DNA from: Octopus vulgaris | Lineage: Eukaryota | DNA: 64,000 nucleotides | Assembly (NCBI GenBank): GCA_951406725.2 | Contig: OX597818.1 | Span: 13,330,001 to 13,394,000 of the forward strand | Direction: 5' to 3' | In this document: one piece after another, positions 8,398-59,072 of the stretch | How positions within the stretch are numbered: the first letter of the stretch is position 1 | How the letters are laid out: each line of letters begins with the position of its first letter | The notes under the pieces: generated by a model | What the model was told of the DNA's origin: nothing | The model's database searches: none | The model's input: the letters and a program-made list of their open reading frames with translations, nothing else | Translations under genes and position numbers: made by a program

Positions 8398-8563
8398 CAT
8401 ATATATATATATATATATATATATGTGTATGTACGTATATCAAGTAGGTACTGCAAATTTAGGGTGAATACTTGATAAGTGAAAGAACCTGTATACGCCA
8501 GATTGTGGCAGAGGTAAGAGAGAATATATCAAATAAAATCAAAAAGAGAACACAAAGGATATC

Positions 8564-8655
8564 GCGGTACACGTGTTTCAAGCTTTATAAACGACCTGTT
8601 CATTGCATCAGTATATAATAGATATAAAAGATGGTTTAAAGCTCTCTTCAGCCGC
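8564..8655 (-). ncRNA. Type I hammerhead ribozyme with long stem II
   Basis: GCGG CUGAAGA GAGCUUUA...UAAAGCUU GAAAC ACGU GUA^CCGC. Confidence 0.85.
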
Positions 8656-8840
8656 ATACATGATTATTCCAAGGAGTTACATTACACTATAAAAAATATG
8701 AAAAGTACATGTAGTATTACCCATTATAATACGTATATCATATCTCCCTGAGAAAGTGTATTTGTAAAATTTCGTAACTGTATTACTGTATAAAGATTCA
8801 TTGGATTTCGAAAATCTGCCCCTTTGGAATAACAATGTAT

Positions 8841-8932
8841 GCGGCTGAAGAGAGTTTTAAACCATCTTTTATATCTATTATACACTGATGTAATGAACAG
8901 GTCATTTATAAAGCTTGAAACACGTGTACCGC
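8841..8932 (+). ncRNA. Type I hammerhead ribozyme with long stem II
   Basis: GCGG CUGAAGA GAGUUU...AAGCUU GAAAC ACGU GUA^CCGC. Confidence 0.85.
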
Positions 8933-9039
8933 GATATCCTTTGTGTTCTGTTTTTGATTTTATTTGATATATTTGTATGTATATATATATATGTAGAAAT
9001 ATATATATGCATATATATATACATTCTTTTATTTCAATC

Positions 9040-11825: not shown

Positions 11826-13105
11826 TTGGGTTGTCCGGAAAGTACGTTCCGATTTATAGTAGCTTACCTTTCGTCTTATTTTAAAACATAGTTGAGTCAA
11901 TAAAATAGGATTTGACAACACCTCCATTTAGAGCACAGTTTAAACTATGTTTTCGTGGAAGAAGGTTTATGTTCCTATAATCTGTGTTAATTCTGTAACC
12001 CTTTAAAATGGAAGATAAGAAAGTTCATTTTCGGCGCTTGATGCTTTTCTTTTTCCGTAAAGGGAAAAATGCCTCACAAGCAACCAAAGAAACATGCCCA
12101 GTTTACGGTAATATTTCTTTATCCGAAAGAAATGTGCTGAAGTGTTTCGGAAGGTTCCCAGCTGGAGATTGTAGTCTTATTGATAAAGAGCGTTCAGGCA
12201 GACTATCCACTACAGATGATGATCAAATCAAGTCATTAATTGAGAATAACCCACATAGCACAACCCAAGAATTGGCAGAAAGATTCAAACTATGAAAATC
12301 CGTCGTTCATGAACACTTGGTAAAGCTTGGGTACACCAATGGCTATGATGTTTGGGTACCACTTGAGTTGAGTGAGAACCTTTTGGATCGAATTTCCATC
12401 TGTGGTTCGCTTTATAAACGGAATGAAAACGCGCCTTTTTTAAAGCAAATTGTGACAGGTGATGAGAAATGGATTATCTACCGAAATATTCAGAGAAGGG
12501 GATCCTGGAGTAAGTGACATGAGCCACTCTTAGCCATCCCAAAGCGGGTCTTCACCCTAAAAATTTCTTGCTTTGTGTCTGGTGGGATTGGAAAGGAATT
12601 CTGTACTATGAGCTTCTCCCAAGTAACCAGACAATTAATTCTGAGAAATACTGCACATAACTGGACGAGTTAAAATCAGCAATTCAAGAGAAACATCCAG
12701 AATTGGCCAACAGGAAGGGTGTTGTTTTACAACATCATTATATAAGACCGCACGTTTCTTGGGGAACCAGACAAAAATTGCTGCAGCTCGGCTGGGATGT
12801 GTTACTCCACCCTCCATATTCACCAGATATCGCTCCTTCAGATTTCCACTTATTCGGGTCTCTGCAGAATAGTCTTAATGCTAAAAATTTCAATTCCTTG
12901 GATGACGTAAAAAGATGCCTTGATGAATTATTTGCCATGAAACCACGTCAATTCTGGTAAAAGGGTATTTTCAAGTTAAAGGAAAGATAGAGACGCAATG
13001 TGCATTAAAATGATTCACATTTGGTTGATTAAAAATGAAATGGCAATTATTTATTGACCTTTTCCTTTCCTTTAATAATCGGCACGAACGTTTCGGACAA
13101 CCCAA
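11826..13105 (+). mobile_element. Full-length mariner (DD34D-type) transposon, 1280 bp
   Basis: TIRs TTGGGTTGTCCGGAAAGTACGTTCCGATT / AATCGGCACGAACGTTTCGGACAACCCAA, with TA on both sides. Confidence 0.95.
12008..13031 (+). pseudogene. Mariner transposase pseudogene
   Basis: HTH region with RSGR, then WVPLEL, TGDEKW and HPPYSPDIAPSDFHLF, split over three ORFs by stops and frameshifts. Confidence 0.95.
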
Positions 13106-16999: not shown

Positions 17000-18785
17000 T
17001 GCGAATCAAGAATGGAATATTGCAACTCAACTAAAAATACATCATGTATTAGAGATAGAAAAGAAGTTAAAATGCCGACTTGTAAAGATAGAGTATAGAG
17101 GACTGTCTCTTGACATCATATTGCCACAAGTCTCTATTTATTCTCTCTACACTACTTCTTGATGTCTCTTCAATATATGCTGTATATTTGTTCTTAGAAG
17201 CAACCTCTATGCATCTCATTGTTTTGACTACATTTCTAGTTCTAAAGTTATTGCCAGGTTTAATTTTACATATCACGCAATTTTCATTAGTACATGTGGT
17301 ATTTTCGAAGAGGTATGTCCTACAAAAATGCAATATGATGCAGCTCCCTAGCTTCTCAACGATGTTCATGTTGAGCTTGGTCTCCTTCAGAGCTTTCATA
17401 AATCTACTGGCTAGTTCCCCGTGGAGTGGAGCCTCTACAAACAGCGCACCTTGATATTTGTCAGCACCGTATCATGTGTTCATTCTGTTTGCTTTGTCGC
17501 AAACGCTCTAGTTATTATTTCAGTCTTGATCTCTGTCTCTAGTACGTGCACCACTTGCAGCATCACGTATTATGTTATTTAATGTCTTTCTACCTCCCCT
17601 GTATACACGAATTCTATCTTTCTTGAAATATCTAGACAATTGCATGCAGTGCATGAAGTTCTGTACATGTTTCCTTGTTTTATAGGGATCACATAACAAG
17701 GGCACGATATGCATTATCCTAACTAAGCCTGCTATCAGTGTGCTGATTTTCGTATTGTGTGACAAAGCTGAGTTCTTGTGAACAACGTATTTAGAATATA
17801 TGGGTTTCATGTAACAGGAGTTTAGGAGCTGCACCTTGTTGTTTACAATCTCTAACGAATGTTCAGTATGAAAGACAGGAGGTCTGTTGATAGGGTGCCT
17901 AGTTGGGCAGTGTACCTTAATACTTCCGTGGATGGGGTTAGCTACGTGCTGGATGATCTACATTATGTTCCACTTGTTTTCTACGATAGACTTAACAGGA
18001 TTTGTCCTAAGTAGAATATTGATGTCATCTACATATCTACAGTAAAGCAATACTGTTGGGAATTGTTCAGTTTGAGATGTTTAAAGATTCTGTTCCACCA
18101 GATCATGAAGAGGCAGGCCACACCGACACCGACTGCTGCACACTGAATCTGCATGTATAGTTTCCCGTCAAACGTTACTATGTGGTTCTTTAAGGTGGTT
18201 CTCACGCCAGCTCTTGTAGCACGCACGGTCATTCTTTACACCTGATTGTCATTCTGAAGGTCCTGGGTTGGTATGATGCTGGCTCTCCAGCGCTTTATAG
18301 TGCTTTTCTTCACTACCAAGTTGATGGTGGGTGGTATTCTCATCTGTGACTTGGTGGGGCAGAATCTACTCAGGTCATTGATGTCTAGTTACAGTCATAA
18401 GTTAGTTTTAGGAGGAGGCCCAGTTCCCTCGTGCTGACTTCGCGGTTGTCTACTTCGCTCTCACAGATAATCTCAATGCATTTTTCCACTGCAAAATCTA
18501 TGTCTATACATGGGTAAAAAGAAATCACACCTATACTACCTACTGCAGAACCTGTGAGTTCGTTCAAGTGGCTGCAATTACTAATTATACAGAGGACATC
18601 CATTGCGCTCACACAGACATACAGAGACATTTCAATGAGTGGTCGTGAAACCTATGAAATGAAGAAGGATAACCTATAATTTCTGGAGATATTCGCTCCA
18701 CAAACTGGCCGGGTTGGGGGCCTCATAATTGAGTTTACGTAGGCTTGATGATTCTTCTGTAACCCGTACAATGGAAGAAATATAA
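17000..18785 (-). mobile_element. Decayed Penelope-like element (RT plus GIY-YIG endonuclease)
   Basis: LYGLQKNHQ...PPTRPVCGA, SIGVISFYPCI, FDGKLYMQ and RYVDDINI, then C..CKI...RTRNVV...YIEETSRS..ER. Confidence 0.85.
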
Positions 18786-18834
18786 ATAATAAATGAGTGC
18801 AAACTGGACCGGTGAGTGTGTTAAATATTAAGGC

Positions 18835-18878
<44 letters not shown>

Positions 18879-18928
18879 AACGATTTTTTGCCAACCTAAT
18901 GTAGCATTCCCGATTTTGCATATATATA

Positions 18929-19448
18929 TAGCAAAGACGCGTGTGTGCAACAAACATGAAAAAAATTTGTCTTACCTCTAGGAAGAACATCTGAAAAATG
19001 GAAAACCTAGAAACGGATAATGCAGGACCGGTTTCAGACACTTCAAATACGTTTGACAACGTAGATTTGATTTGTCTTCATCAGCTGCATTTACCTAGAC
19101 AAAATTTCAAATGTTGCCACATCTATGCCAGTACACTCGTCTAAACGCCAAAACAGTAACAGAACGATAACAGTGAAGTTTCAATGAAAATAATAATGCA
19201 ATAGGAAAGTATTGCTTTCCAGTAAAAGATAGCCCGTAAGGGTAAAATTATACATCTAAAAGTATTATCCGTTTCTAGGTTTTCCCTTTTTCAGATGTTC
19301 TTCCAAGAGGTAAGACAAATTTTTTTCATGTTTGTTGCACACACGCGTCTTTGCTAGTATATACGCCGTGAAGCTATACAATAGCGTCGTATTTATTACG
19401 ATTGCTATTTTCCAGTAAATATCGGGGCCTCGTTGTACCATTTATTTA

Positions 19449-19450
<2 letters not shown>
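18929..19450. mobile_element. Non-coding hammerhead element with an inverted 5' part, bounded by (TA)n
   Basis: 18929-19021 is the reverse complement of 19264-19357; 19264-19450 recurs at 41493-41680. Confidence 0.85.
19019..19091 (-). ncRNA. Type I hammerhead ribozyme with minimal palindromic stem III
   Basis: AAUGCAG CUGAUGA AGACA...UGUCU GAAAC CG GUC^CUGCAUU: 7-bp stem I and an extended stem II hairpin. Confidence 0.92.
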
Positions 19451-19504
<54 letters not shown>

Positions 19505-19555
19505 TGAAGTATTGTTATATTTCGGAATGGTCATTTTGCCAGTTTAGCCAATGTT

Positions 19556-19912
19556 TGAAGTATATTTTCCATCTAAATATGGCTAACCACTAAGGGTGGA
19601 TGTTACTGTAGCTTGTAGCCCCAGGAGAACATATTCTCCAGCTGGCTATTGACACACTTTCTGTGTCCTATCGGTATTTGCAAATGGAGGTCATCCTTCC
19701 CCCGTCAACCTAAGTGATACGCACGTACTGCAGTTTCTGGGTATTGACCTGTCCTCAGCGCACGTAAACCACCGGTTTTCGATGGAAGGGTCCCAATGCA
19801 AATATTTATATCCTTTTTCCAGTGACTTTTCGTCACTGATTTCCTGGGGCTACAACCTACAGTAACATCCACCCTTAGTGGTTAGCCATATTTAAGTGCC
19901 AAATATACTTCA
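19556..19912. mobile_element. Inverted-repeat cassette (~70-bp arms) enclosing a hammerhead
   Basis: 19556-19626 is the reverse complement of 19842-19912. Confidence 0.8.
19721..19763 (-). ncRNA. Type I hammerhead motif with partly disrupted stem II
   Basis: GUGCG CUGAGGA caGGU caau ACCca GAAAC UGCA GUA^CGUGC. Confidence 0.7.
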
Positions 19913-20171
19913 CGTTGTCGTGCAGTTACTGTCTACACCTTGTTCAGAGATTTATTATTGCTTGTATACACTTTTTCAAGATCAGTGACTAAATGTATAA
20001 GCGCAATACATGAATGACATAGTGCAAGTAATTTTATTTGATGTAGATTCGTTAATCGTTACGCCGGTTTTTATGGTTACTTCTTACACATTGGCATTTT
20101 GGTAACTAATAATGTGATAGGAAGTAATGTTTCACGAGCCGATTCTGCTATTCGAACTGAGCAATTAGAGT

Positions 20172-23838: not shown

Positions 23839-23913
23839 AGTGTGTGTGTGTATGTATGTGTATGTGTGTGTATGTGTGTGTGTGTGTGTATATGTATTTG
23901 TGTTTGTCCCTCC
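23636..23913 (+). mobile_element. SINE (tRNA/CORE-like head plus internal microsatellite), 3'-truncated
   Basis: A box TGGCTGTGTGG, B box GGTTCAGTGCC; homologous to 9040-9452. Confidence 0.85.
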
Positions 23914-24640
23914 ACGAGAGAATTCCATGCGGCGCATGAAGTTCTGTACATGCATTTCTCTGGATATGATCGGAAAGATATACAGGGGTGCTAGAAAGAA
24001 TTTAGATAACATCATATGCAATGAATCCAGTGGTACCTGCCCTAAATATAGAAGTAAAGATTGGAATAAAATACAAAGAGTTTGTGACAAAGTAAACAGG
24101 GTGAACACGTGTTATAAAACCGACAAATATCAAAGCATGATGTTTTTAGAAGCCACAGCTCATGGTGAACTAGCCCGTAGATTTAGGAAAGCTCTAAAGG
24201 AAGGCAAACTCAACATTAAGATTGCTGAAAACCAGAGAGCTCCATCAGATCACGACTATGTAGAACGTACCCATTTGAGAATCCCACATACACCAATGAT
24301 AAGTGCATGGTATCTAGGATTAACCCTGGCATTAACTTGTAGAACGAGAAATGTAGTCTATAGTATAAGGTGCATAGAAGGTGTTTGTAAAGACAAGGGC
24401 ATGATATACATAGGTGAGAGACCTAGGAGCATAGCAGATAGACTAAATATACAATTGAGACAATATGATGACAAAGCATAGGCCTCCATATTCCACCAGC
24501 ATGCCAAAAACTAACATTGAGGCAATTTGGTTCAACTTGACATCCGCATTTTATTCAAGCACTCGAAGGACCCAACTCTCAGACAAATACATGAGTACAT
24601 CATCATAAATGAAAAGTCCCCAGTTCTAAATAGGATATAC
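23914..24640 (+). mobile_element. Penelope-like element fragment (thumb plus GIY-YIG)
   Basis: FLEATAHGELA, CRTRNVVYSIRC...IYIGERPRSIADR; homologous to 17000-17680 (-). Confidence 0.85.
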
Positions 24641-27342: not shown

Positions 27343-27680
27343 TCACCCCGTAAACGTGTTCCACAGATTATGCTTGGAAAAGAGTATTGAAAATTGTTCC
27401 TCCGTGGTAAGCGGGCAGAAAGATTTCCCTTTGCAATAGGGAAATGATATCGGTAACATTTTCCAGTCTAATGAAAAAAGCTTGTTAGAGTCTTTAAGGT
27501 GCCACAGTGGTTTACTAAACCCTGTGTAATTACGCTTACTGTAGTATTTGAAGGTAGAGAAATGGTTAGCCAGCCTAGATTTCAGTTTCGTAGAGAATAA
27601 ACCTATATAAAGATATGCCTTCTTACCAGAGGTAATCTTGCACCGGTACACGGGACTTTTAATTTGGCAGATTCCATTTG
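27343..27680 (-). mobile_element. Penelope GIY-YIG endonuclease fragment
   Basis: VYRCKI...YIG...KSRLANH..TF...LWHLK...W...CPL..EE pattern in ORF 27343..27933. Confidence 0.85.
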
Positions 27681-27712
27681 TATGTTTGTATATATATATA
27701 TATATATATATT

Positions 27713-27751
<39 letters not shown>

Positions 27752-27870
27752 AAATGAAATAAATGAAAGACAGGACACAAAGGATGTTGCGGTACATATG
27801 TTTCGGGCTTTATAGAACAACTTATTCTTACATCAATGCATAATCGACATAACAGATAGTTCAATAACAG
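27752..27870 (-). mobile_element. Diverged partial copy of the 8523-8972 hammerhead family
   Basis: ACACAAAGGATGTTGCGGTACATATGTTTCGGGCTTTATA aligns to 8550-8589; only the 3' half of the HHR remains. Confidence 0.7.
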
Positions 27871-28119: not shown

Positions 28120-30562
28120 TAATACAAGTAGAGAAGTATAGGAAATCAATAATCTCAAGGAGGATGACAACATAATTATAAAAGAAGCCGACTAACGAAG
28201 TGCTGCAGTAACCACAGACTCAGAAAAATACATACACACTACACTAACCCTCTCTCAAGAAAAAAATCATCAACTACAGTTAATCCAAGATAATGACCAA
28301 TATGATAATAACCACTATGTCTATACTTATCCACCAATTCCAACAATGTCTAACAAAAAAGGAGATAGATTACTTGACTAGATTTAACTGCAAAATCGGT
28401 AACTTCTATGAACTTCCCAAAATCCATAAAAGTGATGTCATAAACGAAGCCTGTAACAGCTCAACTTCTATAGACATAAGTATTCCACCCGAGAGATCTC
28501 AAAATGAGACCAATTGTAGCCGATCCTCGTGTGAGACACACAGAGTCAGTAATTTTATTGACTCCTCCTTAAACCTATTCTCCAAAATATACCGTTTATA
28601 GAGGACGATCTGAACTTTTTAAACCATCTCCCGAACATAACCAGCAAGGACTCCCCCCTGGTTTCATTTGGTTTTATAAACCTCCACACCTCTATTACTC
28701 ACGAATAGAGAATAATAGCGATACAATACTGGCTGGAGAAATTCCCAACTGACATTCCTGACCGAATTGGAAAATAATTCATCGTTGAAGGAATACGATT
28801 CATCTTACAGAACAAATTCTTCAATGTCAACGATGACACTTGTAGGCAGCTGCGGGCACGGTGATGGGAACGAGGGTAGCCCCTACTTTTACCAAACTTG
28901 TCATGGCATATTGGAAGACCCAATATACGAACACGCTAGATTGAAATTTTGAGACATCTTCAAGAAATACTCACTAATTGGAAACGCTATCTCGATGACT
29001 GTTTCATCCTTGTGGTCGCATAAACTTGAACAACTCTCAAAATTTAAAAAGCTTTATCAACAGCATTAACCAGAGTATCCAGTTGACAATGTAATACAAC
29101 CACAAACAACTACCATTCCAGGACAGCTTAATGGTAATGTGAGATACTGAAGTTGAAACCGACGTCTTCTTCAAAACAATATCTTCTATTCTCCTTTTGC
29201 CATTCTAAACAGGAAAATAAATATACTGTTCAACTTAGCGAGGAGAATTTGCATGATTGCATCAAATCCTGAAACCCGAGAAAAATGACTCCAAGAACTT
29301 AAAAAACACATTACTGAATAGAAAATACCCATCCAGTCTAATCGAAAATGGAATAGACCGTGTAAAAACGATAGACATCCAAGAGTTACGGAAAACAAGA
29401 AAACACCTTGTCACACTTAAAACTCTTACGTAGCAACACACAATCCAAGAAGCATGGAAGCATACAACATCATCCACCGTGAATTAGGGTTATTAAAAGC
29501 AAGAGACAACACCAATCCCTTAGAAATTACTCACCAGCGCCTAATTAACCACCAAAAATACAACCGCACAAGTCAGAAAGAGCAACGGCCCTAACTGCGG
29601 AACTTGCATATTCTTCTTGGAGAGCACAACATAGAAATTTAAGTCAAACTTTTCCCATAAAATATGACTTCATATGTGCTTCGAAGAACTTAATCTATGT
29701 TATCCAATGTGGAGGTTGTGGTGGGGACGACATAGGTCAAACAAGCTTAACATTGAGGGATAGACTTACGGTGCACAGGAAACAAATCCGGGATGCCACC
29801 ACAAGGAAACTTCCCGTAAGCAAGAACCTACACCAATGCCCCGTATACAGAAACCCTAAATACCAAATGTTCTCTCTCTATCAATGCACTGGAATCACTT
29901 CAACCCAATTCCATTAAGATAAGGAAAACCTATTGATTAAAAAATATAAACCACAGATGAATATCTTTTAGAAAGAAGAAAGAGCAGTAAAAAGAAAAGA
30001 AAATGGGCTCAATTTCTCCATAAAAAACAACAACCAGGAACAAAAAGAATTTTTAAAAATCGTTAGTAACAATCTTCCACCCAGGTTCCGAAACCACAGC
30101 TCTATATCTCCATACGAACACCAGTTTCCGATGTATATATATATATATAATTTAAAGAACATATTTATATTTAAAAATATTTTTACGTATATTTATTTTA
30201 TTATTGTAGTTATCTTTAACCTGATGAGTGGCTATATTTATATTGAAGTGATTTTACTACTACTAATATTTTTACTATAATCAATGCTTAAATATCGCCA
30301 CGAAACACCTGTCTTTTTTCTACCAAATATATACGTTTTTATTTATTATTTTGCACATTAATTAATCATCGTTATATTTTTTATCTTATATTTAATTTTT
30401 CTATAATATGTAATTTTCTAGATGATGTAATTTAATGTTTCATTATTGAATTGATAAACTCTGATGTTCTCTGATTTATATATATATATATATTATATTC
30501 TGTGAAATTTGATTTAGTATTTCTAAATTGAATTTTTTCCTGTAAGTTTAGAATAATATTCC

Positions 30563-40266: not shown

Positions 40267-40317
<51 letters not shown>

Positions 40318-40530
40318 TGAACAAGAAGGGTAGTAATATTATTTACTACCAGGTGCCCAGCACAAAAGACGAATTAGTCATAAGACAAAAATATTATTCA
40401 TATAGAAAAATATTATTCATGTAGTTATACAATTAAGGGCGTCTAAATTAAGATGCCGAGTGCTGGGAACACAAAAAAAGGGGATGAATTTATCGAGAGT
40501 GAAAAACAAAAACGTTTATCGATAACTTTA

Positions 40531-40604
40531 ACTCGAACCGCGGTTTCTGCTTCTTTCTAGCAAAACACAAGATATGTTTGCTAAGGCTAGCTTCATCAGC
40601 GAGT
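40531..40604 (-). ncRNA. Type I hammerhead ribozyme (array copy 1)
   Basis: ACUCG CUGAUGA aGCU...AGCa GAAAC CGCG GUU^CGAGU; A-A mismatch at the base of stem II. Confidence 0.82.
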
Positions 40605-40984
40605 CGCCTTAATTTAATCGAGGTCTGCAGCGATGTGAGACCATGTGTTGATCTCGAACTACTAGCAGATCTTAACTTTTCAAATCTCTGCGCAGACGCA
40701 AAATTTATACGGCAGTATAGGGCATGCCGGGAAGAATTTTACGAATAAATTCATCATGTAATATGTGAATATGAACAAGAAGGGTAGTAATATTATTTAC
40801 TACCAGGTGCCCAGCACAAAAGACGAATTAGTCATAAGACAAAAATATTATTCATATAGAAAAATATTATTCATGTAGTTATACAATTAAGGGCTCCTAA
40901 ATTAAGATGCCGAGTGCTGGGAACACAAAAAAAGGGGATGAATTTATCGAGAGTGAAAAACAAAAACGTTTACCGATAACTTTA

Positions 40985-41058
40985 ACTCGAACCGCGGTTT
41001 CTGCTTCTTTCTAGCAAAACACAAGATATGTTTGCTAAGGCTAGCTTCATCAGCGAGT
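40985..41058 (-). ncRNA. Type I hammerhead ribozyme (array copy 2)
   Basis: Identical to 40531-40604. Confidence 0.82.
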
Positions 41059-41434
41059 CGCCTTAATTTAATCGAGGTCTGCAGCGATGTGAGACCATGT
41101 GTTGATCTCGAACTACTAGCAGATCTTAACTTTTCAAATCTCTGCGCAGACGCAAAATTTATACGGCAGTATAGGGCATGCCGGGAAGAATTTTACGAAT
41201 AAATTCATCATGTAATATGTGAATATGAACAAGAAGGGTAGTAATATTATTTACTACCAGGTACCCAGCACAAAAGACGAATTAGTCATAAGACAAAAAT
41301 ATTATTCATATAGAAAAATATTATTCATGTAGTTATACAAATAAGGGCTCCTAAATTAAGATGCCGAGTGCTGGGAACATTCACGTAATAGATATATTAC
41401 GTGAATATTTTTTTTGTGTTCCCAGCACTCGGCA

Positions 41435-41480
<46 letters not shown>

Positions 41481-41488
41481 CATATTTA

Positions 41489-41677
41489 CTGCATTATCCG
41501 ATTCTAGGTTTTCCATTTTTCAGATGTTCTTCCTAGAGGCAAGACAAATTTTTTTCATGTTTGTTGCACACACGCGTCTTTGCTAGTATATACGCAGTGA
41601 AGCTATCCAATAGCGTCGTATTTATTACGATTGCTATTTTCTAGTAAATATCGGTGCCTCGTTTTACCATTTATTTA

Positions 41678-41680
<3 letters not shown>
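41489..41680 (+). mobile_element. Dispersed copy of the 18929-19450 family inside (TA)n
   Basis: Aligns to 19264-19450 and starts with CTGCATTATCCG. Confidence 0.9.
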
Positions 41681-41733
<53 letters not shown>

Positions 41734-52133: not shown

Positions 52134-53148
52134 TAGGGGTTAGACAAGATAATGAAACACCTAACAGCATAGCATCATAATTTTGAAATAGCTATAAAAC
52201 CGTCAAGAGTTCCTTTATTTTTATGGTTTTTGATTTATTATTAGTGTTGCTTAATGTTTCGTCGAAACAAGACTCCGGAAGAAAACAAAAATTTTCAGAC
52301 AGTTATATGAATTGTCAAAAAGGATCACAAAATTACAGCTCCCAAAATTACTGCAGAGCTTAATAACCACCTTGAGAACCCGGTTTCCTCAAAAGAATGT
52401 TCTCCAGGAGCTCTATAAAGCCGGATTTCACGGGAGGGCTGCAATCAGAAAACCATTTCTTTCAAAAACAAATGCTGCAAAGCGTTTAGAGTAGAGTAAA
52501 AACCTACAGATTCGTCCCTTGAGCAGTGGAAGAACGTTGTTTTCTCGGACGAATCATCCTTTACCTTATTTCTGACCATCGGAAAGAAGTATTTGATCCA
52601 GACTGCATTCTTCCAACTGTTAAACATGGAGGAGGACCTGTGATGATCGGGGAGTGGGGAGTTATATATTGGAAATCCGCCAGCCCAATAGTTTCCGTTC
52701 ATGGCAGAATTAATAGTCAAGACGATGTAAGCATTTTATCTGATCATATTCATCCTGTGGTTGCGGAACTGTTTCTGGAGGGAAAGGCAAACTTTCAAGA
52801 TGATAATGTACCTACTCATACAGCTACAATTGTTACTGAATGGCACGAGGAACATTCTAGTGAAGTTGAACATCTTATCCGACCACCACAGTCCCCAGAT
52901 TTCAATGTTATTGAACATTCATGGTACGTTTTAGAAAAAGAAGTAAGGAATCGATATCCTCCACCATCCTCTCTACAACAACCATTGACTTCTTTAGCTG
53001 AAGAAAGGACAACAATTCTTTTGGAAACAATTGAAACTGCGTACGAGTCCATACCTCGTAAAATTCAAGCTGAAATTACTGCCAAAGGCGGTCCTACCTC
53101 ATATTAAAATTAATTTTAAAGTGTTTCCATTATTTTGCCCAACCCCTG
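52134..53148 (+). mobile_element. Tc1-like (DD34E) transposon, internally deleted
   Basis: TIRs AGGGGTTAGACAAGATAATGAAACAC / GTGTTTCCATTATTTTGCCCAACCCCTG with TA flanks; motifs FSDESSF, PTVKHGGG, FQDDN, PPQSPDFNVIEHSW. Confidence 0.93.
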
Positions 53149-56092: not shown

Positions 56093-56139
<47 letters not shown>

Positions 56140-56284
56140 CAGGGCAAGACTGCTAGGTAGTCGGCCGTATGCTAGAACTAAGACATTTGAAATTTTATCC
56201 CTAATGTAATCGGTAAAACTAAGCACGTGTCTGTCTTGGCACAGAAAGCTGGGGTTAGTTTTCAGATTGCATTTACACTGAACG

Positions 56285-56361
56285 ATTGTACTGATGAGGC
56301 CACGGACATTTGAATTATTTAAGTAATTCTTTTGTTAAAGGCCGAAACCGAGGTATGCAAT
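56285..56361 (+). ncRNA. Type I hammerhead ribozyme (copy 1)
   Basis: AUUGUA CUGAUGA GGCC...GGCC GAAA CC ga GG UA^UGCAAU. Confidence 0.9.
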
Positions 56362-56829
56362 TAATTCTGTTTTTTAAATAAATTTTCATCTGTCCTGCCC
56401 CCAAATTTGGTTCTGGTGTTCGCTGAATTTTTCCTTTAGAGAACTTTCTTTGTAGTTTGATCGTTGATGATCTATTTCTAGCATACGGCCGACTACCTAG
56501 CAGTCTTGCCCTGCCAATGTACACATATATTAGAATTTTCTCTGATTTCTCAGATTTTTTGTATGCTAGACTACTGTTTTTAATTTGATATTAAAATTAA
56601 TATTAATTTATCTCCCTCATTATCTAAATATTGAAATAAATACGTTCTCTAGTAGCAAGCACTAACCGCAGTGAATTATTTACTGCAGTTCTTCGCTTCA
56701 GGAATTTTTTAGCACGCCGGAACTAAGAGATTTGAAATTTTATCCCTAACGTAATCGGTAAAACTAAGCACGTGTCTGTCTTGGCACAGAAAGCTGGGGT
56801 TAGTTTTTCAGGTTGCATTTACACTGAAC

Positions 56830-56908
56830 AATTGTACTGATGAGGCTACGGACATTTGAATTATGTAAGTAATTCTTTTGTTAAAGGCCGAAAAGGAGGT
56901 ATACAATT
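56830..56908 (+). ncRNA. Hammerhead copy 2 with mutated stem III
   Basis: AAUUGUA CUGAUGA GGCU...GGCC GAAA ag ga GG UA UACAAUU. Confidence 0.7.
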
Positions 56909-57168
56909 AATTGTTTTTTATATAAATTTTCATCTGTCCTGCCCGCCAAATTTGGTTCTGGTGTTCGCTGAATTTTTCCTTTAGAGAACTTTCTTTGTAG
57001 TTTGATCGTTGATGATCTATTTCTAGCATACGGCCGACTACATAGCAGTCTTGCCCTGCCAATATACACATATATTAGAATTTTCTCTGATTTCTCAGAT
57101 TTTTTGTATGATATACTACTGGTTTTAAATTGATATTAAAATTAACATTAATTTATCTCCCTCATTAT

Positions 57169-57206
<38 letters not shown>

Positions 57207-58050: not shown

Positions 58051-58118
58051 TATTATCTTGTATTCCAAATATAGTTCATATATGTATTATCTTGTATTCC
58101 ATATATAGTTCATATATG
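58051..58118 (+). repeat. 34-bp tandem duplication at the LINE 5' junction
   Basis: TATTATCTTGTATTCCA(A/T)ATATAGTTCATATATG occurs twice. Confidence 0.9.
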
Positions 58119-58123
58119 TAAAT

Positions 58124-59072
58124 GTGAGCCTGCAATGTGAGCTGGACAAAATATACAAGTGGGCTGAAAAGGATAGCATGCAGTTCAATTCTGAAAAGTT
58201 TCAAGCTTTATACTATCAGCATGCAAAACTAAATGCAATACCCAATGAATACACTGGACCCGGCGGAATTGCAATCCTAGAGGCACAATCAGTGCGTGAG
58301 CTGGGTATTTACATGAGTGATGACGCAACCTTTCGTGTACATGTTGCTAAATTGGCAATGAAATGTAGACGACTGGCCGGATGGATTCTCAGAACCTTTA
58401 GAACAAGAAAACAAGAAACCATGATGGTCCTCTGGAGGACACTTGTCCTAAGCCACTTTGACTATTGCTCTCAGCTATGGTCACCACCCAGTGTCAAGTT
58501 GATCACAGAACTTGAGGCGACCCAACGTAGCTACACGAAGAAGATAGCCTCTGTGCAGAATATAAGCTACTGGGAAAGACTCAAGAGATTAAAACTCTAT
58601 TCCTTGGAGCGTAGGCGAGAAAGATATGCCATAATATACATCTGGAAGATCCTGGAAGGACTTGTCCCAAACTTTGGCATCGAGAGTTACACAAATGCCA
58701 GAACTGGGCGCCACTGCGTGGTGCCTAGGACTCCAAATTTGCCATCAAGATGTAGGACAAGATACTGTGATAGCTTGGGCTTCCGAGGCCCACAGCTCTT
58801 CAATATCCCCCCGAAGAACCTAAGAGACCTGCATGGGGTGGATGCAGATGTCTTTAAAATGAAACTGGATCTTTTCTTGTCAGGTATCCCAGATGAACCA
58901 ACTTCACGGCAGGAGGTGCAGATGAGGGCAGCTGCATCGAACTCTCTCATGCACCAAATGGCAGTTGCTAAAAAGCATTCGTGAAGTAAAACCATGTAGC
59001 AACACCAAATGGCGGTGCCCCAACATGGCCACAGCTCGTGAGCTGAAACTAGAATCAATCAATCAATCAATC
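58124..59072 (+). mobile_element. CR1/L2-group LINE, 5'-truncated, with uninterrupted ORF2 C-terminus (58124-58984) and (AATC)n tail
   Basis: LQCELDKIYKWA..MQFNSEK, DYCSQLWSP, YWERLKRLKLYSLERRRERY; AATC repeats at 59052-59072. Confidence 0.92.

What the first reader, a model, noticed from the sequence alone, without database searches (positions are those of the whole stretch)
41489..41680. Dispersed copy begins exactly at the predicted ribozyme cleavage site
The HHR at 19019-19091 predicts GUC^CUGCAUUAUCCG. The copy here starts with CTGCATTATCCG straight after TA-rich sequence, with no upstream HHR bases, and ends in (TA)n. This is a genomic footprint consistent with in vivo self-cleavage followed by retrotransposition of the 3' product.
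Basis: partly seen in the sequence, partly recalled or inferred. Interest (0 to 1): 0.8.

Follow-up and report, generated by a model that had tools for sequence, protein, structure and literature searches.

The report
Retrozyme fragment starting at hammerhead cut
A 192-base piece of an abundant repeat that carries a hammerhead ribozyme motif sits between TA repeats and begins where the ribozyme is predicted to cut, likely because a Penelope-type reverse transcriptase copied an already cut RNA; other copies run straight through that site, so this is a suggestive case in a known kind of element, not proof of cutting in cells.

Summary
The coordinates are right. A type I hammerhead motif lies on the minus strand (predicted cut 19026/19025), and the copy at 41489-41680 matches its downstream side from exactly +1. 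A second arm (19264) starts at +5, and both end at +192 on (TA)n. Contigs of 4 of 4 public runs join +192 back to the DNA upstream of the hammerhead. The family is therefore most likely a ~426-nt cyclic, ORF-less unit (non-LTR retrozyme), and the copy is its first 192 nt, not the whole 3' product. Cleavage setting the 5' end is plausible (about 0.5) but unproven. Contig depth shows no step at the cut (ratios 0.90-1.20). 8 of 10 hammerhead sites in the window are read through. A GUA-triplet variant (12-25% of depth) makes the flanking TA possible ribozyme bases. With the ascertained copy removed, the clustering has P of about 0.02-0.05 within the family and 0.10-0.21 across four families. The genome-wide histogram could not be made: no assembly is held, and TA-junction contigs were not visible.

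The parts
41489..41680 (+). Dispersed copy, +1..+192 relative to the predicted cut (5' boundary ambiguous -2..+3)
   Evidence: blastn 97% over 104 nt to 19025-18923 and 96% to 19264-19471; alignment; nhmmer finds only these 3 family pieces in the window
41439..41488 (+). Left TA-rich flank; its last 2 bases (TA) equal U16.1/A17 of the GUA variant; 41483-41490 repeats the 8 nt just before the copy's last base
   Evidence: variant share; the 6-mer occurs near 9 of 116 TA-run ends, so the 8-nt echo is not significant
41680..41730 (+). Right (TA)n flank, likely the target tract that primed reverse transcription
   Evidence: the 19264 arm has the same 3' junction
19015..19097 (-). Type I hammerhead motif with minimal palindromic helix III; predicted cut between 19026 and 19025
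   Evidence: the helix III 10-mer self-dimerises at -9.7 kcal/mol; core positions show no variant among the 40 of 58 rows listed except C17 to A
18923..19264 (-). Inverted arm: +188..+426, through the intact hammerhead, to about +97/+103, ending at an internal TA-rich site
   Evidence: loose ends behind 19264 in 4 of 4 runs continue as the reverse complement of the +192 end; folds at z -2.75
19264..19451 (+). Sense arm of the same composite insertion, +5(+6)..+192
19451..19501 (+). (TA)n flank of the composite insertion

Best explanation
The 192-nt copy is a piece of a high-copy repeat bearing a type I hammerhead motif, likely a ~426-nt non-autonomous retrozyme unit, and it was likely written into a TA tract by a Penelope-type reverse transcriptase that started inside the RNA at +192 and ran off a 5' end made by predicted hammerhead cleavage. 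Shown: the motif, the +1 start, the +5 start of a second arm, the shared +192 end on (TA)n, and contigs joining +192 to the DNA upstream of the motif. Inferred: tandem arrays are transcribed; the hammerhead cuts, probably as a dimer, into linear monomers, some of which circularise; an unidentified autonomous Penelope-like element nicks (TA)n and primes at +192. Linear cut RNA would give 192-nt copies like this one, and circles or uncut multimers would give the read-through copies. The identity of the element is held at about 0.8, and cleavage as the cause of this 5' end at about 0.55.
For: Exact +1 start. An independent arm starts at +5, with P about 0.02-0.05 among the 2 other arms of the family. 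Fixed 3' end in 2 of 2 sense copies. 11 contigs in 4 of 4 runs (1+4+2+4) continue behind 19264 with 13-15 of the first 14-15 letters matching the reverse complement of the +192 end, giving a unit of 426 nt. Variation mostly fits a selected ribozyme: C17 to A keeps NUH; two stem II changes become G-U wobbles; 6 contigs of run X4 carry another palindromic loop III and a stem I change complementary to the 19088 variant (linkage on one contig not shown). Internal RT initiation and AT-rich targets are shown in vitro for a Poseidon element (PMC11167929). Monomers of ~170-450 nt with type I hammerheads form linear and circular RNAs in animals (PMC7229834). The window holds GIY-YIG-like remnants (0.91, a lead) and a decayed RT-endonuclease frame ending in (TA)n.
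Against: No step in contig depth at the cut: +13 against -1 or -11 gives 0.90-1.20 in 4 runs. Table 6 is empty, none of the 24 of 345 loose-end rows shown lies at 19025/19026, and 10 of 32 listed pieces bridge the cut. 8 of 10 hammerhead sites in the window's four families are read through; with this copy removed, 1 of 9 has P 0.10-0.21. The GUA variant offers TA microhomology at the cut. In the anole element, hammerhead mutants did not affect insertion in vitro and no RNA reads began or ended at the cut. The Rfam score is below gathering. Stem II position 19040 is changed in nearly all contigs but its partner 19073 in only 40-66%. In 2 runs the loose consensus behind 19264 diverges from the window's copies after 15 letters. 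No tandem dimer of this family and no autonomous partner was seen.
Confidence: 0.5

Rival explanations
1. Ordinary 5' truncation that happens to fall at the cut: reverse transcription on an uncut or circular RNA stopped, and the cDNA end annealed to the TA target at the UA of a GUA triplet (or stalled at the three-way junction). The ribozyme played no part in this end.
For: The GUA variant is 12-25% of depth and the flank ends in TA. Both inverted arms examined end at internal TA-rich sites, so TA annealing is used by these elements. The copy was ascertained on the coincidence. Depth is flat across the cut and 8 of 10 sites are read through. Insertion does not depend on cleavage in vitro.
Against: The unit has 39 TA dinucleotides (19+20), so nothing singles out this one. 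The +5 arm is not explained by TA annealing (its junction shares 1 base). Whether this copy descends from a GUA donor could not be tested.
Confidence: 0.33
2. A longer read-through insertion later lost its upstream part by a DNA deletion between the left TA tract and the triplet region.
For: The left tract is an unstable microsatellite shared with the 5' end of another tandem hammerhead repeat (40307-41437). One search lists internal deletions in this family (joints 18963 to 19030/19031 in 3 runs).
Against: No direct sign of a deletion; the copy is young (2 differences in 97 nt); this does not explain the +5 arm.
Confidence: 0.07
3. The pieces are truncated pseudo-LTR ends of an autonomous Penelope-like element rather than of a ~426-nt unit. 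The 20-nt match at 19264 would be a second copy of the terminal motif lying upstream of the hammerhead.
For: The architecture (5' truncation, inverted arm, microsatellite target) is that of Penelope-like insertions (PMC8557442). Loose consensus in X3 and X7 diverges after 15 letters, and only 11 short contigs carry the join.
Against: The join is seen in 4 of 4 runs, exactly at the arm boundary, and the X7 consensus regains register (5 contiguous matches). Two sister repeats in the window are overt ORF-less tandem units of 545 and 454 nt with the same design. No coding frame lies in the unit.
Confidence: 0.1

Closest known systems
Metazoan non-LTR retrozymes (Cervera & de la Pena 2020, PMC7229834; Li, Clavereau & Pollet 2026, bioRxiv 10.64898/2026.07.22.740005)
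   Same: Type I hammerhead with short palindromic helix III, unit of a few hundred nt (426 here; 150-450 bp in the 2020 paper), low GC, no ORF, self-paired fold, dispersed partial copies, coexistence with Penelope-like remnants.
   Different: No tandem dimer of this family was seen directly. The parts of these papers that I read do not describe a fixed internal 3' end, (TA)n targeting, 5' inversions or 5' ends at the cut. RNA and cleavage are untested here.
Insertion architecture of endonuclease-bearing Penelope-like elements (Craig et al. 2021, PMC8557442; Frangieh et al. 2024, PMC11167929)
   Same: 5' truncation, inverted 5' arm, microsatellite target with no discernible TSD, 3' end at an internal site downstream of the hammerhead cut.
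   Different: No RT/GIY-YIG ORF in this family. The start site is 192 nt from the cut, against about 85-92 nt in the anole element (my subtraction from its ORF coordinates). In that element cleavage was dispensable in vitro and no cut-site RNA ends were found.
R2 retrotransposon HDV-like ribozyme (Eickbush et al. 2013, PMC3774820, abstract)
   Same: [quoted passage not shown]
   Different: HDV-like rather than hammerhead; autonomous and rDNA-specific; cleavage was shown experimentally and the junctions are the rule, whereas here read-through is common.
Schistosoma hammerhead SINE-like repeats and newt satellite 2 (as reviewed in PMC6765202, passages)
   Same: Hammerhead-liberated monomers from multimeric transcripts proposed as templates for dispersed copies.
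   Different: No Pol III promoter was looked for; here the copy is a fixed 5' part of the monomer, not the whole monomer.

Membership tests
Type I hammerhead ribozyme | Core CUGANGA ... GAAA ... NUH | tested here: met
   19084-19078, 19035-19032, GUC 19028-19026
Type I hammerhead ribozyme | Stems I-III with the open ends in stem I | tested here: met
   Stem I 7+2 bp, stem II 4-5 bp plus extension, helix III 2 bp with palindromic loop. The monomer MFE forms stems I and II but mispairs helix III; the 10-mer self-dimerises.
Type I hammerhead ribozyme | Reaches the Rfam gathering score | tested here: not met
   HH9 26.7 bits against 52; the 31-nt loop II insert and missing loop III lower the score
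Type I hammerhead ribozyme | Self-cleavage after H17 | not testable with these tools
   No assay; only contigs were available
Non-LTR retrozyme | Repeat unit of a few hundred nt that closes on itself | tested here: met
   +192 joined to the upstream segment in 11 contigs of 4 of 4 runs; 426 nt. Rests on short contigs.
Non-LTR retrozyme | [quoted passage not shown] 2026) | tested here: inconclusive
   Not present for this family in the 64-kb window; no assembly held; contigs too short
Non-LTR retrozyme | No protein-coding frame; GC under 50% | tested here: met
   The only frame of 90 aa or more is stop-to-stop and runs into the TA flank (18652-19077); GC 0.38 for 18001-20000 and 0.41 for the motif
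Non-LTR retrozyme | Highly self-paired RNA | tested here: met
   342-nt arm z -2.75, 0 of 100 shuffles; 192-nt copy z -2.53, 6 of 200 shuffles. The whole monomer was not folded.
Non-LTR retrozyme | Expressed as linear and circular monomers | not testable with these tools
   No RNA holder listed
Non-LTR retrozyme | No LTR, PBS or PPT | not tested
   Not searched formally
Autonomous EN+ Penelope-like element | RT plus GIY-YIG ORF between pseudo-LTRs | tested here: not met
   None in or beside the family's three pieces; remnants elsewhere in the window share no DNA similarity with them
Penelope-type insertion product | 5' truncation, inverted 5' arm, microsatellite target, fixed 3' end | tested here: met
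   18923-19451 composite and 41489 copy; features from PMC8557442
Ribozyme-defined 5' junction (R2-like) | Family-wide peak of 5' ends at the cut | tested here: inconclusive
   2 of 3 arms in the window lie within 5 nt; no step or listed loose end in 4 runs, but no TA-junction contig was listed anywhere

The most novel reading that the evidence does not exclude
The genome keeps a readable record of hammerhead cleavage in vivo. Animal retrozymes are copied by Penelope enzymes from one fixed internal start; cut linear monomers yield a discrete 192-nt cut-to-start class of SINE-like inserts, and circles yield read-through and tandem inserts. The ratio of the two classes would report how much template was cut, and the inverted arm that stops at +188..+193 would mark one full turn of a circle.
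Probability: 0.3. Interest if true: 0.62.

Novelty: new member of a known kind. Interest (0 to 1): 0.38.

Why it matters
Whether the hammerheads of Penelope-like elements and animal retrozymes act during retrotransposition is open. Craig et al. 2021 call their function unclear, Frangieh et al. 2024 found cleavage dispensable in vitro, and Li et al. 2026 list the mobilisation mechanism as unresolved. This family has many young copies, a fixed 3' end and a cut 192 nt away, so one histogram on a genome assembly would test the question directly. By itself the single copy settles nothing.

Tried and rejected
No genome is held for the window, so the proposed histogram could not be made. Exact-pattern scans found 0 matches in metagenome contigs, viral contigs and prokaryotic genomes. 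Earlier scan notes gave no look-alike stretch. No RNA holder listed, so expression was not examined. Contig depth is not copy number and was used only as a rough ratio across the cut. No loose end made of TA repeats was listed at any place, so the laying is probably blind to the very junctions in question, and 321 of 345 loose-end rows were not shown. The 8-nt echo of the copy's own 3' end at its 5' junction (41483-41490) was considered as a template jump, circle junction or TSD and set aside: the 6-mer lies near 9 of 116 TA-run ends. Rfam microRNA and snoRNA hits over TA tracts are composition artefacts below gathering. Pfam found no RT or GIY-YIG family in 10 of 10 frames tested, only DDE_3 in 1. 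The host looks like an octopus-type genome from recall only; this was not tested, and the O. vulgaris repeat paper has 0 occurrences of 'hammerhead' or 'ribozyme' in its main text.

Full report
Observation. The window is a microsatellite-rich eukaryotic stretch (119 tandem rows; GC 0.27-0.41). On the minus strand lies a type I hammerhead motif: CUGAUGA at 19084-19078, GAAA at 19035-19032, a 2-bp helix III with the palindrome ACCGGU, and GUC with C17 at 19026. Stem I has 7 contiguous pairs plus two G-C pairs. The region folds at z -3.07, although the monomer MFE mispairs helix III, and the helix III 10-mer self-dimerises at -9.7 kcal/mol, as expected for motifs that work as dimers (PMC4209133, parts 1-2 of 4 read). 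Rfam HH9 matches at 26.7 bits, below its gathering score of 52. The copy 41489-41680 aligns from exactly +1 (97% over 104 nt) and is followed by (TA)n.

Anatomy in the window. blastn and nhmmer find three pieces of the family. Two form one composite between TA flanks: an inverted arm (18923-19264, minus) that carries the hammerhead, and a sense arm (19264-19451) that starts at +5 or +6. Both sense pieces end at the same base, +192, on (TA)n. The inverted arm ends at a TA-rich site near +97..+103, as twin priming (a recalled model) would give. A truncated copy with an adjacent inverted copy in a microsatellite is the architecture described for Penelope-like insertions (PMC8557442, 12 passages read).

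The unit is cyclic. No assembly is held. Of 24 runs listed, I laid contigs of 4 runs from 4 coded organisms on 18905-19280; 422-790 contigs were laid per run, so the family is abundant. Behind 19264, 11 contigs in 4 of 4 runs (1, 4, 2, 4) continue with letters that match the reverse complement of the +192 end in 13-15 of the first 14-15 positions (compare), on top of 5 such bases in the window itself. So +192 runs on into the 234 nt upstream of the cut, and the unit is 426 nt with no coding frame. In X3 and X7 the consensus diverges after 15 letters (agreement 0.68-0.77), which I read as a subfamily, because the X7 consensus regains register; a paralogous motif is not excluded. This fits a non-LTR retrozyme (PMC7229834, parts 2-3 of 6 and 2 passages; bioRxiv 10.64898/2026.07.22.740005, parts 1-3 of 5).

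The ribozyme looks maintained. Among the 40 of 58 variant rows listed, none hits the invariant core. C17 changes to A (allowed), and 19037 and 19074 turn into G-U wobbles. Six contigs of X4 carry another palindromic loop III with a GUA triplet and a stem I base complementary to the 19088 variant. Against this: 19040 is changed in nearly all contigs while its partner 19073 is changed in 40-66%, 19036 breaks the pair next to the core in 35-48%, and an empty core is not significant at this variant density.

Does cleavage set the 5' end? For: this copy starts at +1 and the independent arm at +5. With the ascertained copy removed, one stop within 5 nt among the 2 other arms of the family has P 0.02-0.05. 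R2 gives a precedent for ribozyme-defined junctions (PMC3774820, abstract only). Against: (i) depth at +13 against -1 or -11 is 0.90-1.20 in the 4 runs; table 6 is empty, none of the 24 of 345 loose-end rows shown lies at the cut, and 10 of 32 listed pieces bridge it with 31 or more letters a side. No TA-flanked junction was listed anywhere, so this test is probably blind to copies like ours; it shows only that much of the family runs through the motif. (ii) Three other hammerhead-bearing repeats in the window (545-nt and 454-nt tandem units, and an inverted pair with a decayed relative; motif reading by script; Rfam gave 0 and 1 weak match for two of them) all read through. The tally is 2 stops in 10 sites, and 1 in 9 without this copy, P 0.10-0.21; two of those sites are decayed motifs. 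(iii) The GUA variant is 12-25% of depth, and the flank ends in TA, so the junction may be TA microhomology at -2/-1; linkage to this copy's two variants could not be read. (iv) In the anole element, cleavage mutants inserted normally and no RNA reads ended at the cut. Unchecked notes from other genomes in this scan report single coincidences, a mildly favoured cut site, or ends upstream of the motif; I used them only as a reminder of ascertainment.

Mechanism. Shown: motif, starts at +1 and +5, shared +192 end, cyclic join, read-through copies. Inferred: arrays are transcribed and cut, probably as dimers, into monomers, some of which circularise. A Penelope-type RT/endonuclease nicks (TA)n and primes at +192. 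Cut linear RNA gives +1..+192; circles or uncut multimers give read-through. Enzymes of that type have been in this genome: a GIY-YIG-like remnant at 27346-27681 (Atlas 0.91, a lead) and a decayed RT-endonuclease frame at about 28140-29950 ending in (TA)n (motifs read by recall). No partner sharing the +192 end was found. I put cleavage-defined origin at 0.5, chance or TA-guided truncation at 0.33, an autonomous pseudo-LTR at 0.1 and a later deletion at 0.07.

Novelty. The element is a new member of a known kind. Five literature searches returned no paper whose listing or read parts map retrozyme or Penelope 5' ends to the hammerhead cut. The library lacks most subscription papers, so this is not proof of absence. 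The value lies in the test it sets up: a young, abundant family with a fixed 3' end 192 nt from the cut. Interest 0.38.

Noticed in passing
window 40307-41437 (minus strand): 454-nt tandem unit (2.4 copies, 98% alike) with a type I hammerhead motif in two units (H17 at 40990 and 40536, palindromic loop III), a short 5' inversion and TA flanks. It shares the TA tract 41439-41485 with the copy studied. Retrozyme-like; Rfam gave no match.
   Followed up: partly
window 56136-57171 (plus strand): 545-nt tandem unit (1.8 copies) with a hammerhead motif (cut after 56355; the second copy has a damaged helix III), a 45-nt inverted 5' arm ending at an internal TA-rich site, and TA flanks. Its 5' end lies 180 nt upstream of the cut.
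   Followed up: partly
window 8523-8973 and 27750-27864: Inverted pair of 150-nt arms, each with a hammerhead motif about 45 nt before a microsatellite end. A decayed relative lies next to a GIY-YIG-like remnant (27346-27681, minus).
   Followed up: partly
window 28140-30150 (plus strand): Decayed RT plus C-terminal GIY-YIG/CxxC frame with many stops and frameshifts, ending in (TA)n; Penelope-like by recalled motifs, no Pfam hit.
   Followed up: partly
window 17067-17957 (minus) and 23840-24481 (plus): Two 71%-alike decayed fragments with endonuclease-like motifs, probably tails of another Penelope-like family; no significant Pfam hit.
   Followed up: no
loose ends at window 19030 (run X4) and 19089 (runs X2, X3): Related subfamilies share the upstream DNA but carry different hammerheads: one with another palindromic loop III and a GUA triplet, one with other stems around a CUGAAGA core (clear in X2 only).
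   Followed up: partly
window 19260-19264: The inverted arm's RNA-sense start (+188) overlaps by 5 nt the +192 point where sense copies end, as if one full turn of the unit had been copied up to the start site.
   Followed up: partly
window 52523-53107, 11999-12960, 58109-58984: Tc1-type DDE_3 fragment (Pfam 7e-11), mariner-like fragments and a LINE-tail-like frame (the last two by recalled resemblance only).
   Followed up: no
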